A stretch of 64,000 nucleotides of DNA from Candidatus Thermosaccharophagus tengchongensis (lineage in GTDB: Bacteria > Armatimonadota > Fervidibacteria > Fervidibacterales > Thermosaccharophagaceae), in NCBI GenBank assembly GCA_032161105.1, contig JAVHTD010000002.1. One strand, 5' to 3'. Position numbers: made by a program. Below are positions 24,001 to 27,000 of the stretch, one piece after another. Numbering within the stretch: position 1 is the first letter of the stretch; each line of letters starts with the position of its first letter.

Positions 24001-27000
24001 ATTGAGCACTTTAGGCTATTCCTTGGGCTTGGGTTACCTCGCACATTTGTGCCGCTTCCAAGTATGGGTGAAAGTATAGGTGAGGTAACGCCAACCGAAG
24101 CATTGCTTGACCGTTCAATTGAAACAATTGGATTGGATAGGAAAGTTGTAAATATTCTTGTTAAAAATGGCATATATACGCTTAGAGATTTGGTGAATAA
24201 AACGGAGAGTGACCTCCTAAATATCCGAGGATTTGGAAGGCAAGCGTTAGTGGAGGTTATGAGGATTTTGGACGGGTTAAAGCTCAAGCTGAAAGAGGAC
24301 AAAAAATAACGAAGGGATGGGGAAAGGTTATGCGGCATCGCAAGGAGCACAAGGGCTTAGGACGCCCATCAGATCAACGAATGGCATTGTTAAAAAATCT
24401 CACTGCGTCGCTTTTCATACATGAACGCATAGAGACAACCCTGCAAAAAGCGAAAGAAGTCCGCCGAATAGCTGAGAAGCTGATCACGATTGCGAAAGAG
24501 GACACAGTTCATTCACGCCGTCTTGTCCGCAGGATGATACCAAACCCACTGCAGCGAAAAGTCGTCAACAAGATATTCAGTGAAATTGCCCCAAGATATC
24601 GCGACAGAAATGGGGGATATACGAGGATTATAAAGACCGGGATAAGAAGGGGCGACGGTTCCCAAATGGCAGTTATAATGCTCGTTGAATGACACAAAAT
24701 TTTGGAAAACTGAGCCCAAAATTGGCACTCAAGATGGGGAGAGCCAAAAAGCAAGACCAAGAGAGGCATATTATGCTGGTAGTTGAATACGATGGGACGA
24801 ATTTCAGCGGTTTTCAGAGACAACTCAACGCGCGCAGCGTCCAAGAGGTTTTGGAGAGGGCAATTGAAAATGTCGTGAAACATCCAATAAAACTTCAATT
24901 TGCTGGAAGAACTGATGCTGGAGTTCATGCGACATACCAGGTTGTGAAATTTGTCACAAATAGCAAGATGCCAATTAGCGCATTTATTCCGGCAATTAAT
25001 GGCAATTTGCCCGATGATGTTGTGGTCAAATCTGCCAAGGAAGTTGACCCAAATTTTCATCCGCGCTATAGCGCAAGAAGCAGGGTTTATCGTTATTTGA
25101 TTGATAATGGAAAATGCCCATTTGTTTTAACGAGAAGATATGCATGGCACATACCAAAGCGCCTGAATGTTGAGGCTATGCAAGAAGCGGCAAATTATCT
25201 AATCGGGATGCATGATTTTAAATCATTTCACGCCAGTGGCAGCGATCTTGGCAGCACAGTCAGAAGAATATACGGCATAAAATGCGCAAAGAAAGGCAGA
25301 TTTATCTCCATAACAATTGAAGCCAATGCTTTCCTTTACCATATGGCAAGAATAATTGTTGGGACACTTGTGGAGGTTGGACTTGGAAAAATAAAGCCAA
25401 TAGATGTCAAACACATACTTGAGGTGAGGGACAGAAAAGCAGCAGGTCCAACTGCTCCTGCAAAGGGGCTTTGCCTTACAAAAATCAAATACGATGGTCA
25501 AATTTCGGCAAACCGAAAGCAAGAGCAAAATTAGCCGTGAATTCAGAAAGCGGTGGCTATAACCGCAAATACAGCAGTTGTTATGCTAAAGGGGGTAAGG
25601 ACATGAGAAATTGCACAACATATATCAAACCGGAGCAAGTTAAAAAGAATTGGTATATTGTTGACGCCGCTGGTGTGAGGCTTGGGAGACTCGCAAGTGC
25701 AGTGGCATACCTTTTGATTGGGAAGCACAAGCCACAATGGCAGCCAAATGTGGATGTGGGTGACCATGTCATCGTGATTAACGCGGAAAAGGTGGCTCTT
25801 ACTGGGAAAAAGCTTGATCAAAAATTTCACTACCGCCATTCCGGCTATCCGGGTAATTTGCGGGCATACAGCTATAAGTGGATGCTTCAAAATCGCCCAG
25901 AACAGGTCATAATGCTCGCAGTTGAGCGGATGCTGCCAAAAAACAGGCTTGGCAGGAAAATGATCAAGAAATTGCGTGTTTATCGTGGTTCGGAGCATCC
26001 ACATCAAGCGCAACAACCAATCCCAATTGATATTCGTAAGCTCGAAAAGACGATGCGAATTTCGGACGCAATAGGGGGCGATAGGTAATGATGGGAGAAA
26101 ACCACGAAGAAGTCAAAAATTTGCCCGAAGAGGCATTGGGGGGAATCGCTTCAACTGATGAGGAACACAGCGTAGAGCTACAGCAAGCGGGACTCCCGAG
26201 TGAAGAGGACACAATGCCATCTGTGGAGAAACCGGAAGAGATTGCCCAAGAAATTGGCATTTCTTTGGAGGGAAGAGCGTCTACCTTAGCCCAGCGCTTC
26301 TATGCTACTGGGAGGCGGAAGGAAGCGATCGCAAGAGTGTGGCTAATACCGGGTGGTAAAGGCAACATTATAGTCAACGACACGCCGATTTCGGAATACC
26401 TTTGCAGGTATTCGCTTGTCCGCCATGCTATTGAGCCATTCATAGTCACGCAAACTTTTGGGCTATTTGATGTAAAAGCGACGGCAAAAGGTGGCGGTCT
26501 AACTGGGCAAGCTGGAGCGCTTCGCCACGGCATAGCCAGGGCGCTTGTGGCATACGATCCCTCTCTCCGTCCCATATTGCGGAAGGCTGGACTTTTGACC
26601 CGTGACCCGAGGGTTAAAGAGCGGAAGAAATATGGGAGGAAGAGGGCAAGAAGGGGCTTCCAGTTCCGCAAGCGCTAATTTTGCATGTGTTGTCACATTG
26701 AAGTTGCGGTAGAATCGTTATCCACCCCTGCAGGATGCTGTTGGCTATGCGAGTAAGGTGAAATTTGCAAGGGGTGGCATGGAGATGGCAAGTTTAGGTA
26801 AGAGCATTGGCAGGTGGTTTTACAAAATTGAGCCGTCAATTTTTTTCGTTTTGATGGCATATTTGGCGGGTATTATTGGGGCGAATGGCGATGTAGTATA
26901 CAAGCTGCATGCCGTTCAAAGGGGTGAAACGCTTAAGTCGGTCGCATCACGCTATGGAATTACAGTTGAACAACTTCGTCACGCCAATAGCAGCCTTAAT

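What a model noticed while it worked through the whole genome (the two positions that open the first line are those of the whole stretch)
26088..26678. Six small-subunit ribosomal proteins carry long acidic tails
uS9 (74 extra residues at the N-terminus), bS6 (93, N), uS2 (79, C), uS5 (59, C), uS3 (46, C) and uS17 (40, C) all extend beyond their Pfam domains with low-complexity, Glu/Asp-rich segments, whereas no 50S protein showed such an acidic tail in the same scan. I read these as genuine disordered acidic appendages of the 30S subunit of Fervidibacterales, perhaps a polyamine/cation-buffering or anti-aggregation coat for ribosomes at 80 C. A subunit-wide set of acidic tails would be a new structural feature for cryo-EM of a hyperthermophilic bacterial ribosome.
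Evidence so far: Extensions and their sequences from proteins.faa against Pfam domain ends: D+E/K+R = 17/4 (uS9), 25/18 (bS6), 21/4 (uS2), 14/10 (uS5), 12/6 (uS3), 10/4 (uS17). The called starts of uS9 and bS6 have Shine-Dalgarno motifs (AGxAGG/AGGxGG). In 5 other genomes of the order the uS9 reading frame stays open for 160-256 codons and the bS6 frame for 147-198 codons (usual sizes about 130 and 95-135, recalled), with sequence similarity in the tail only inside the genus. NCBIfam equivalogs cover only 0.49-0.71 of uS17, uS5, uS9 and bS6. Places: uS9 C2:165783-166373, bS6 C34:2419-2991, uS2 C25:13695-14591, uS5 C2:157108-157761.
(Added by a program. Inside this text positions count along the whole contig: contig position 139,696 is position 1 of the stretch shown here. 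"Call 12" and the like, gene names such as g00115 and contig names such as C1 are that model's own, and its searches are not shown. The text may have been shortened before it was handed on; [...] marks where a part breaks off. The agent that wrote the report below was given it as the finding of a first reader that could run no searches.)

Follow-up and report, generated by a model that had tools for sequence, protein, structure and literature searches.

The report
Acidic floppy tails on 30S proteins
Several small-subunit ribosomal proteins of this hot-spring bacterial order really do carry long, negatively charged, probably floppy end-pieces, a local example of a habit already described for bacterial ribosomal proteins, with no tested function.

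Summary
uS9 (window 26088-26678) is a 196-aa protein with a canonical core (about residues 70-196) and a 69-74-residue N-terminal tail (D+E 17, K+R 4). The tail is translated. All 24 genomes of the order have one (33-134 aa) behind a Shine-Dalgarno site plus ATG. The frame holds 0 stops in 5589 nt, against 57 and 117 in the other frames. Tail dN/dS is 0.11-0.50 against 0.007-0.085 in the core. AlphaFold gives pLDDT below 50 and no secondary structure.

The six tails have different histories:
- uS9 (N), bS6 (N), uS17 (C) and a missed uS15 (C) tail are order-specific.
- The uS2 tail is phylum-wide. The uS3 tail exists phylum-wide but is acidic only in this order.
- The long uS5 tail is genus-specific, and its last 40 codons overprint the start of uL30.
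- The bS6 extension is half basic.

The 30S bias in this genome is real (6 of 19 against 0 of 32, post-hoc threshold). bL19 and uL13 have short order-specific tails.

Terminal, surface-exposed, Glu-rich low-complexity tails on bacterial ribosomal proteins are already described (PMC6821194). This scan met them before in other lineages, soil and marine ones included, so a heat-specific coat is unsupported. Verdict: real, new members of a known kind, function untested.

Aside: uL10 and bL12 form one open frame across the order.

The parts
25603..26088 (+). rplM (uL13), 161 aa from ATG 25603. Its TAA stop (26086-26088) shares one base with the uS9 start (TAATG). It has a 28-aa C-terminal stretch beyond the Pfam domain, longer than in the outgroups.
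   Evidence: Sequence. Pfam PF00572 at ORF residues 59-177. Tail comparison: 21-33 aa in the order against 0-18 aa in outgroups.
26088..26678 (+). rpsI (uS9), 196 aa plus stop.
   Evidence: Pfam PF00380 at 75-196, E 6.9e-45. NCBIfam NF001099 at 69-196, above cut-off. Orthologues found in 31 of 31 genomes searched.
26088..26294 (+). N-terminal extension of uS9 (residues 1-69; 74 if counted to the Pfam start). It is acidic (17 D+E, 4 K+R), rich in T/S/P/A/Q and predicted disordered.
   Evidence: 24 of 24 order genomes have an extension of 33-134 aa, all net negative. 0 in-frame stops against 57 and 117 in the other frames. dN/dS 0.11-0.50. AF2 pLDDT below 50 over residues 10-66 with no secondary structure. 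None of 66 uS9 sequences from solved structures aligns with it.
26295..26675 (+). Canonical uS9 core, with the invariant YATGRRKEA motif and the C-terminal RRGFQFRKR.
   Evidence: Alignment A1, invariant columns. AF2 pLDDT 93-97. Aligns with bacterial uS9 chains of 125-132 aa.
11227..11364 (+). C-terminal tail of uS3 (46 aa, 12 D+E, 6 K+R). The gene is 10624-11367.
   Evidence: 14 of 14 order loci have tails of 39-46 aa, all net negative. 5 outgroups have tails of 30-102 aa, of which 1 is net negative and 3 are Arg/Gly-rich.
12274..12393 (+). C-terminal tail of uS17 (40 aa, 10 D+E, 4 K+R). The gene is 12034-12396, starting at ATG 12034 behind GGGAGGAGG.
   Evidence: 14 of 14 order loci have tails of 36-72 aa. 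6 of 6 outgroups end 6-18 aa after the domain.
17887..18063 (+). C-terminal tail of uS5 (59 aa, 14 D+E, 10 K+R). The gene is 17413-18066.
   Evidence: 59 aa in 4 of 4 genomes of the genus, 31-33 aa in 13 of 13 other order loci, 16-75 aa in 7 outgroups.
17945..18066 (+). 122-nt dual-coding overlap. The last 40 codons of uS5 lie over the first 40 codons of uL30 (17945-18166) in another frame.
   Evidence: The overlap is 122 nt in all 4 genomes of the genus, with AGGAGG before the uL30 start. It is 41 nt in the two g2 loci with a clear SD-ATG start (L095, L098) and 44 nt at the GTG candidate of one g3 locus (L111); three other order loci of that call showed no such start. In 4 outgroups it runs from no overlap (a 39-nt gap) to 155 nt at the candidate starts shown; a fifth outgroup locus gave no candidate start.

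Best explanation
The uS9 gene at 26088-26678 encodes a normal uS9 core preceded by a roughly 69-residue tail. The tail is translated, intrinsically disordered and net-negative. Translation starts at the ATG that overlaps the uL13 stop codon (TAATG).

The tail is one of several fast-evolving terminal low-complexity extensions on ribosomal proteins of this order:
- Order-specific: uS9 N, bS6 N, uS17 C, uS15 C.
- Inherited from the phylum: uS2 C; uS3 C exists phylum-wide but is acidic only in the order.
- Genus-specific: the long uS5 C tail.

Their length and sequence drift quickly, by indels and in one relative by a poly-Glu run. Their composition stays acidic and rich in T/S/P/A/Q. Some also have short conserved stretches next to the core.

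Inferred, not shown: they act as generic electrostatic or entropic 'bristles'. They would offset the strong positive charge of these proteins before assembly and keep the solvent face of the 30S subunit, around the mRNA entry and exit, from sticking to nucleic acids and other proteins. The short conserved, mostly basic stretches next to the core probably lie on rRNA or on neighbouring proteins.

This is the known class of terminal, surface-located, Glu-rich low-complexity regions of bacterial ribosomal proteins. It is not a heat-specific invention.
For: Translation of the uS9 tail:
- 24 of 24 order genomes have the N-extension.
- 18 of 24 have a perfect GGAGGT within 18 nt upstream of the ATG; the other 6 match 4-5 of 6 positions.
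- 0 stops in frame against 57 and 117 in the other frames, over 5589 nt.
- Tail dN/dS is 0.11-0.50 and core dN/dS 0.007-0.085 in the 8 of 11 genome pairs that were not saturated.
- The conserved 20-residue stretch of the sister family varies freely at synonymous sites, and its Val codon is GTT or ATT in 14 of the 20 sister-family genomes, which rules out a conserved internal GTG start.

Other proteins:
- bS6: 23 of 23 genomes have the extension, with an SD-like motif before the ATG (4-6 of 6 matches to GGAGGT) and 0 stops against 55 and 89.
- uS17 (14 of 14), uS15 (24 of 24) and uS3 (14 of 14) have tails across the order. uS17 (6 of 6) and uS15 (6 of 6) tails are absent or tiny in outgroups.

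Disorder: AF2 gives pLDDT below 50 and no secondary structure for uS9 residues 10-66 and bS6 residues 1-60.

Composition: the uS9 tails are net negative in 24 of 24 genomes, with D+E 0.20, K+R 0.10 and T/S/P/A/Q 0.43. uS17 tails are net negative in 12 of 12 and uS3 tails in 14 of 14.

Known kind: PMC6821194, section 9 (read), reports 822 low-complexity regions in bacterial ribosomal proteins. They are dominated by Ala, Glu and Lys, are mostly C-terminal and lie on the ribosome surface. S2, S16 and L25 carry them in more than 100 genera; S3 and S6 in at least 20.

Position: PMC10085706 (passages read) places the N-terminal extension of uS9 above the mRNA exit site, mostly disordered, and places uS3, uS4 and uS5 around the mRNA entrance.
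Against: - No peptide, ribosome-profiling or structural data show the tails on mature ribosomes.
- The metatranscriptome reads I could lay covered only uL13, with 2 contigs and 2 reads.
- Published Fervidibacter sacchari proteomics detects S6 and S9 only at protein level.
- NCBI's pipeline annotates some orthologues as 130-134 aa, starting at TTG or ATT codons.
- An internal ATG at codon 43 of the window's uS9, behind GAAGAGGA, could give a shorter form alongside the long one.
- The functional part of the statement is inference only. A dN/dS of 0.1-0.5 also fits weakly constrained, nearly neutral sequence.
- The uS5 tail's conservation may simply reflect constraint on the overlapping uL30 codons.
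- The bS6 extensions of three of the four genomes of the genus are net basic.
Confidence: 0.6

Rival explanations
1. Near-neutral low-complexity drift. The tails are translated but do nothing in particular. Solvent-exposed termini tolerate slippage-driven expansion, upstream migration of start codons and loss of stop codons. Selection only removes versions that would stick to rRNA, so acidic tails survive.
For: - Length varies 4-fold within the order (33-134 aa for uS9).
- Tail sequence identity falls to 38-59% while the cores stay 83-98% identical.
- One relative's uS2 ends in a run of more than 30 Glu, consistent with slippage.
- The uS5 tail of the genus looks like a lost stop read on into uL30 in another frame.
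- The tails share no similarity with each other or with anything else in the genome.
Against: - dN/dS is below 1 in all 8 pairs that could be measured.
- Presence is kept in 24 of 24 (uS9), 23 of 23 (bS6), 14 of 14 (uS17) and 24 of 24 (uS15) genomes across two families.
- The stretches next to the core are conserved at protein level with free synonymous change.
- These are very abundant proteins, so extra residues are costly (argument made in PMC6821194, section 9).
Confidence: 0.25
2. Specific function at the mRNA channel or as docking sites. The tails flank the mRNA exit (uS9, bS6, uS2) and the mRNA entry (uS3, uS5). They would act as nucleic-acid mimics or tethers that tune mRNA loading or Shine-Dalgarno-dependent initiation. 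Alternatively, their conserved short motifs would recruit a factor.
For: - Conserved short motifs sit at or near the ends of variable acidic linkers. uS2 of the sister family ends in a conserved roughly 18-residue motif.
- uS9 and bS6 of that family have conserved basic stretches next to the core.
- The uS17 and uS15 tails begin with conserved stretches.
- uS9's N-terminus lies above the mRNA exit, and uS3/uS4/uS5 surround the entry (PMC10085706).
- bS21, an exit-site protein, was not found in this genome, which is 97% complete.
- Strong SD sites are usual in these operons.
Against: - The window's own genus lacks the conserved uS9 and uS2 motifs of the sister family.
- No partner has been identified.
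- The positions of bS6, uS2 and uS17 on the subunit are recalled, not computed here.
- No experiment bears on this.
Confidence: 0.12
3. Annotation artefact. The true proteins start at the core, as in NCBI's short models, and the upstream open frames are untranslated spacers.
For: NCBI-annotated orthologues of 130-134 aa exist (P0005, P0025, P0043). There are no tail-level expression data.
Against: - Those short models begin at TTG or ATT/ATC codons that are not conserved as starts and have no conserved SD.
- The long frames show 0 stops against 57-117 in the other frames, conserved ATG plus SD, dN/dS below 1 and protein-level conservation upstream of the supposed short start.
- C-terminal tails (uS2, uS3, uS5, uS17, uS15) end at the only stop codon, so they cannot be start-site artefacts.
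Confidence: 0.03

Closest known systems
Low-complexity terminal regions of bacterial ribosomal proteins (Ntountoumi et al. 2019, Nucleic Acids Res, PMC6821194; section 9 read)
   Same: Terminal, Glu-rich, low-complexity and surface-exposed. Presence is conserved while sequence varies. S2, S3 and S6 are named as frequent carriers.
   Different: uS9, uS17, uS5 and uS15 are not among the eleven proteins that paper names. Two tails here are N-terminal, whereas the paper finds mostly C-terminal ones. The composition here is E plus T/S/P/A/Q rather than mainly Ala/Glu. I did not see that paper's Supplementary File 7, which maps positions on the ribosome.
Actinobacterial uS9 N-terminal extensions in solved ribosomes (Cutibacterium acnes 8crx chain J, 173 aa; Mycobacterium 5v93 chain i and 32nj chain I, 150-151 aa)
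   Same: An extra N-terminal segment on a canonical uS9 core. In C. acnes it lies above the mRNA exit site and its first 39 residues are disordered (PMC10085706).
   Different: They are shorter: 21-47 aa against 69 aa here and up to 134 aa in the order. phmmer aligned only the cores. The composition of the actinobacterial extensions was not examined here.
Thermus thermophilus uS17 with C-terminal extension (1fjg chain Q, 105 aa)
   Same: A C-terminal addition to the uS17 OB-fold core in a thermophile.
   Different: About 20 residues against 36-72 here. The alignment stops at the core. That the Thermus extension is structured is recalled, not tested here.
Escherichia coli bS6 acidic C-terminal tail (extended with Glu by RimK; recalled)
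   Same: An acidic disordered tail on bS6 at the solvent side of the platform. PMC10085706 describes a 40-aa C-terminal extension of E. coli bS6 on the solvent side.
   Different: Here the extension is N-terminal, genome-encoded, 46-93 aa long, and in this genus half basic. The presence of RimK was not examined.
Organellar uS9 (chloroplast uS9c 5mmj chain i, 208 aa; mitochondrial uS9m, 244-446 aa)
   Same: Long N-terminal additions to the same core.
   Different: These are eukaryotic organelle proteins whose additions include targeting peptides and structured domains. No similarity to the tail here was found.

Membership tests
uS9 (Ribosomal_S9, PF00380; NCBIfam NF001099 equivalog) | Score above the curated cut-off over the whole model | tested here: met
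   Pfam 152.9 bits against a cut-off of 22.5, model positions 1-121 of 121. NCBIfam 169.8 bits against 112, positions 4-130 of 130.
uS9 (Ribosomal_S9, PF00380; NCBIfam NF001099 equivalog) | Conserved gene context (directly after rplM) and a single copy | tested here: met
   uL13-uS9 are adjacent in the window and in all 27 fetched relative loci (28 of 28). There is one strong match per genome in 31 of 31 genomes; one genome also gave a weak second match at E 1.8e-4.
Terminal low-complexity regions of bacterial ribosomal proteins (PMC6821194) | Biased, low-complexity composition at a protein terminus | tested here: met
   uS9 tails: D+E 0.20, K+R 0.10, T/S/P/A/Q 0.43, against a proteome D+E of 0.117. 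I did not run the LCR caller that the paper used.
Terminal low-complexity regions of bacterial ribosomal proteins (PMC6821194) | Presence conserved among relatives while the sequence varies | tested here: met
   24 of 24 genomes (uS9), 23 of 23 (bS6), 14 of 14 (uS17). Tail identity is 38-59% in divergent pairs.
Terminal low-complexity regions of bacterial ribosomal proteins (PMC6821194) | Located on the ribosome surface | not testable with these tools
   Only indirect evidence. The uS9 N-terminus lies above the mRNA exit in C. acnes (PMC10085706). Positions of the other termini are recalled.
Intrinsically disordered region | No stable predicted structure | tested here: met
   AF2 with order alignments gives pLDDT below 50 and no DSSP elements for uS9 residues 10-66 and bS6 residues 1-60. 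bS6 residues 61-73 and 83-89 are predicted helical at pLDDT around 50-70. This is prediction only.
30S ribosomal protein S2, 'sunset domain variant' (NCBIfam NF051451) | Score above the curated cut-off over the 382-position model | tested here: not met
   303.7 bits against a cut-off of 710. The match covers only model positions 6-282. One literature search for the term found nothing relevant.

The most novel reading that the evidence does not exclude
The order has built, in independent steps, a ring of acidic disordered arms around the mRNA exit (uS9, bS6, uS2) and the mRNA entry (uS3, uS5) of its 30S subunit. Some arms are tethered by short conserved motifs. These arms would act together as nucleic-acid mimics or factor tethers that gate mRNA loading, for example by enforcing Shine-Dalgarno-led initiation in a lineage where bS21 was not found. 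That would be a lineage-specific layer of translational control rather than inert decoration.
Probability: 0.12. Interest if true: 0.6.

Novelty: new member of a known kind. Interest (0 to 1): 0.35.

Why it matters
Three practical points follow if the tails are on mature ribosomes.
- Public annotation of these genomes is inconsistent. NCBI models cut uS9 to 130-134 aa using rare start codons, while other callers give 176-269 aa. This affects marker-gene alignments and proteomics databases.
- The order contains a cultivated hyperthermophile with published proteomics. Whether such tails are made, and what they do, can therefore be tested directly by re-searching existing spectra and by cryo-EM.
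- The data show how ribosomal proteins grow. The routes seen are upstream start migration (uS9, bS6), stop loss with overprinting of the next gene (uS5 over uL30) and homopolymer expansion (poly-Glu on a relative's uS2).

The general phenomenon is already described, so the finding extends a known pattern to a new lineage and to proteins less often reported to carry such tails (uS9, uS17, uS15). It does not open a new one.

Tried and rejected
- RNA evidence. One search found 5 runs. Laying 4 of them gave 2 contigs (X1) and 2 reads (X4) on uL13 only, and none on the uS9 tail. This tells nothing either way.
- Proteomics supplements of PMC11535203. 5 files were searched. S6 and S9 are listed only as whole proteins, with no peptide lists. 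Supplement MOESM1 could not be read because it is too large.
- Origin of the tails from dispersed repeats, prompted by earlier scan notes. blastn and tblastn of the six tails against the whole genome found only self-hits and chance matches with E above 0.01. Rejected.
- Internal GTG start at the conserved stretch of the sister family's uS9. Rejected, because the codon is GTT or ATT in many genomes and neighbouring codons vary synonymously.
- 'Sunset domain' uS2 variant. Score below cut-off, and no relevant paper in one search.
- Notes of this scan on this genome under the word 'ribosomal': none.
- Script and call slips: a wrong regular expression (fixed), a search term that was too short (fixed), and wrong coordinates (dropped).
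- Not attempted: mapping the termini on a solved 30S structure (no coordinate tool), and a survey beyond this phylum of how common long uS9 or uS17 tails are.
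Full report
**What is at the coordinates.**
Window 26088-26678 (+) is an ORF of 196 codons. Residues 75-196 match Pfam Ribosomal_S9 end to end, and residues 69-196 match the NCBIfam bacterial uS9 equivalog above its cut-off. 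The gene follows rplM (uL13, 25603-26088). The uL13 stop and the uS9 start share a base (TAATG) behind a G-rich Shine-Dalgarno-like stretch.

The window also holds the S10-spc-alpha ribosomal operon:
- uS3 has a 46-aa tail (D+E 12, K+R 6).
- uS17 has a 40-aa tail (10/4).
- uS5 has a 59-aa tail (14/10).
- bS6 (contig C34) has a 93-aa N-terminal extension (25/18), and uS2 (contig C25) a 79-aa tail (21/4).
- NCBIfam equivalogs cover 0.49 (bS6), 0.60 (uS17), 0.65 (uS9), 0.71 (uS5), 0.74 (uS2) and 0.85 (uS3) of the proteins.

**Is the uS9 tail translated?**
I searched 30 relatives: 3 of the same genus (g1), 20 of the same order in a sister family (f2, genera g2 and g3), and 7 of other families of the phylum.
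- All 24 order genomes, the window's own included, have an N-terminal extension of 33-134 aa, giving proteins of 159-260 aa.
- 18 of 24 (all of genus g2) have a perfect GGAGGT within 18 nt upstream of an ATG that opens with Met-Glu-Gln. The other 6 match 4-5 of 6 positions.
- Over the 24 tails (5589 nt) the reading frame has 0 stop codons, against 57 and 117 in the other two frames.
- In the 8 of 11 genome pairs where synonymous change was not saturated, tail dN/dS was 0.11-0.50 and core dN/dS 0.007-0.085.
- In the sister family the 20 residues next to the core are nearly invariant, yet their codons vary freely at synonymous sites. The Val codon that could have been an internal GTG start is GTT or ATT in 14 of those 20 genomes.
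- In the 4 of 7 phylum outgroups that my script parsed, the frame upstream of the core holds only 10-86 codons and no acidic tract.

The tail is therefore coding, under weak purifying selection, and specific to the order.

**The other tails.**
- *bS6.* 23 of 23 order genomes with the gene have a 46-93-aa N-extension that opens at an ATG behind an SD-like motif (CAGGAGGG in most of g2, 5 of 6 matches to GGAGGT). There are 0 stops in frame against 55 and 89 in 4185 nt. One order genome gave no match with this query.
- *bS6 charge.* In the window's genus the extension is acidic only in its first half. The second half is strongly basic: three of the four genomes of the genus are net basic overall, and the window's own is 25/17 over the 90 residues counted (25/18 over the 93 up to the Pfam start).
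- *uS17.* 14 of 14 order loci have acidic tails of 36-72 aa. 6 of 6 outgroups end 6-18 aa after the domain.
- *uS3.* 14 of 14 order loci have 39-46-aa tails, all net negative. Five outgroups have tails of 30-102 aa, and only one of these is net negative; three are Arg/Gly-rich.
- *uS2.* Acidic tails are phylum-wide: 78-126 aa after a conserved motif in 22 order loci, and at least 69 aa in 6 of 7 outgroups. The sister family ends them in a conserved motif of about 18 residues that the window's genus lacks.
- *uS5.* The order has a conserved 31-33-aa tail (13 of 13 loci). The window's genus has 59 aa (4 of 4). The last 40 codons lie over the first 40 codons of uL30 in another frame, a 122-nt overlap in all four genomes, with the uL30 SD inside uS5. 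This looks like a lost stop codon read on into the next gene. Its conservation cannot be separated from the constraint on uL30.

**30S against 50S.**
I scanned every ribosomal protein I could find in the genome: 19 of the small subunit and 32 of the large. bS21 was not found. bS1 and bL36 were not examined.
- With the post-hoc rule 'at least 25 residues beyond the Pfam domain and D+E exceeding K+R by 4 or more', 6 of 19 30S proteins and 0 of 32 50S proteins qualify (Fisher one-sided p = 0.0015; p = 0.008 if bL19 is counted).
- bL19 has an order-specific tail of 13-30 aa. It is 25 aa with 8/5 here (24 aa and 7/5 by the domain boundary) and basic in the sister family.
- uL13 has a tail of 21-33 aa in the order against 0-18 aa in outgroups.
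- Proteome-wide, 28 of 2038 crude gene calls have a comparably acidic C-terminal 40 residues, and 14 of 2038 a comparably acidic N-terminal 40.

The bias towards the 30S in this genome is real. The 'set' is nevertheless a mixture of old, order-level and genus-level events.

**Nature of the tails.**
AlphaFold2 with order-wide alignments gives pLDDT below 50 and no secondary structure for uS9 residues 10-66 (core 93-97) and for bS6 residues 1-60. The basic part of bS6 is predicted as two short helices at low-to-moderate confidence.

Across the order the uS9 tails are 20% D+E, 10% K+R and 43% T/S/P/A/Q, and are net negative in 24 of 24 genomes. The six tails share no DNA or protein similarity with each other or with anything else in the genome. 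They are therefore not copies of a dispersed repeat, unlike some tails noted elsewhere in this scan.

**Comparison with what is known.**
- Among 66 distinct uS9 sequences from solved structures, bacterial chains are 125-139 aa, apart from Mycobacterium (150-151 aa) and Cutibacterium acnes (173 aa). Organellar uS9 is longer. Only the cores aligned.
- For C. acnes, the authors report a 46-aa N-terminal extension lying above the mRNA exit site, with 39 residues disordered. They place uS3, uS4 and uS5 around the mRNA entrance (PMC10085706, passages read).
- For uS17, the only C-terminally longer bacterial chain is that of Thermus, at 105 aa.
- Ntountoumi et al. (PMC6821194, section 9, read) report 822 low-complexity regions in bacterial ribosomal proteins. 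These are dominated by Ala, Glu and Lys, are mostly C-terminal and lie on the ribosome surface.
- In that paper S2, S16 and L25 are affected in more than 100 genera, and S3, S6, L3, L10, L17, L19, L21 and L31 in at least 20. I did not see its Supplementary File 7.
- Earlier notes of this scan (not checked by me) describe acidic tails on uS17, uL5, uL10 and bS16 in Chloroflexota, soil actinobacteria and marine SAR86.

The kind of feature is known and is not tied to heat. uS9, uS17, uS15 and the N-terminal bS6 extension in this order are new members.

**Mechanism.**
*Shown:* the tails are coding, conserved in presence and in acidic composition, fast-evolving in sequence and predicted disordered. 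Some have short conserved stretches next to the core.

*Inferred:* they act as generic charged bristles that offset the basic cores before assembly and keep the solvent face of the 30S from unwanted contacts. The conserved stretches would lie on rRNA or on neighbouring proteins.

*Rivals:*
- Near-neutral drift with no function.
- A specific role at the mRNA entry and exit, or as docking motifs.
- An annotation artefact, which the evidence nearly excludes.

The hyperthermophile coat or cation-buffer idea could not be tested. I found no tail-level expression data: the metatranscriptome reads covered only uL13, and the F. sacchari proteomics tables list S6 and S9 only as whole proteins.

**Annotation point.**
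In the large protein collection, NCBI-annotated orthologues are cut to 130-134 aa and begin at TTG or ATT/ATC codons. Other gene callers give 176-269 aa. The evidence above favours the long forms.

**Aside: uL10 and bL12.**
Outside the window (contig C31:25718-26713), uL10 and bL12 lie in one open frame of 331 codons with no stop between them.
- The same holds in 23 of 24 order genomes; my motif search failed in the 24th. It also holds in one phylum outgroup.
- A conserved SD-like GG-coding stretch and an ATG sit at the junction.
- A database search found 932 proteins at E of 1e-10 or better. Nearly all of the best 120 carry the L10 domain and both L12 domains in one protein of about 300-334 aa. 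Some come from Nitrospirales and from megabase contigs.
- Two literature searches found no description of this.

It deserves its own follow-up.

**Verdict.**
These are new members of a known kind, of modest interest.

Noticed in passing
G000 contig C31:25718-26713 (locus L132; outside the window); relatives L225-L254: uL10 and bL12 are one open frame of 331 codons with no stop between them. An SD-like stretch and the bL12 ATG sit at the junction. The same holds in 23 of 24 order genomes and one phylum outgroup. A database search found hundreds of roughly 310-aa proteins carrying the L10, L12_N and L12_C domains together, also in Nitrospirales and on megabase contigs. Two literature searches found no description. 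The product could be a tethered stalk protein alongside free bL12 made from the internal start.
   Followed up: partly
window 12377-14488 (+): A 703-aa EF-G paralogue sits inside the spc operon, between uS17 and uL14. This holds in the window and in all 13 fetched relative loci of the order that span that stretch (14 of 14). In phylum outgroups it sits between uL5 and uS14 (4 loci) or between uS17 and uL14 (1 locus). A second EF-G (735-aa ORF) is at the usual place after uS7 (window 4940-7147).
   Followed up: partly
window 17945-18066 (+): A 122-nt two-frame overlap of the end of uS5 with the start of uL30 is conserved in all four genomes of the genus. The uL30 Shine-Dalgarno site lies inside uS5 codons, and uL30 has about 11 extra N-terminal residues.
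   Followed up: yes
P0005, P0025, P0043 (orthologues of window 26088-26678): NCBI-pipeline models of uS9 in this order are cut to 130-134 aa by choosing TTG or ATT/ATC starts, which hides the extension. Other callers give 176-269 aa.
   Followed up: yes
L064 (uS2 of relative G003): The uS2 tail of a species of the same genus ends in an almost unbroken run of more than 30 Glu. This suggests rapid slippage-type expansion of these tails.
   Followed up: no
whole genome G000: No match to the bS21 family (PF01165) in this 97%-complete genome, while the same search hit 6 of 14 control genomes.
   Followed up: no
window 4033-4452 (+): uS12 is 139 aa, and the Pfam match starts only at residue 40. There seems to be an insertion of about 15 residues near the N-terminus relative to the usual bacterial protein; that comparison is recalled.
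   Followed up: no
L020 against L021 (uS9 of G017 and G023): The tails are 93% identical (dS 0.13) but the cores only 82% identical (dS 2.5). This is the reverse of every other pair. It could be recombination, or a chimeric or contaminated contig; G017 also gave a weak second uS9 match (E 1.8e-4).
   Followed up: no
L114, L116, L118 (uS3 and uL22 of phylum outgroups): Other Armatimonadota carry basic, Arg/Gly-rich tails on uS3, and two of them (L114, L118) on uL22, where this order has acidic tails (uS3) or none (uL22). Tail charge differs by lineage.
   Followed up: no
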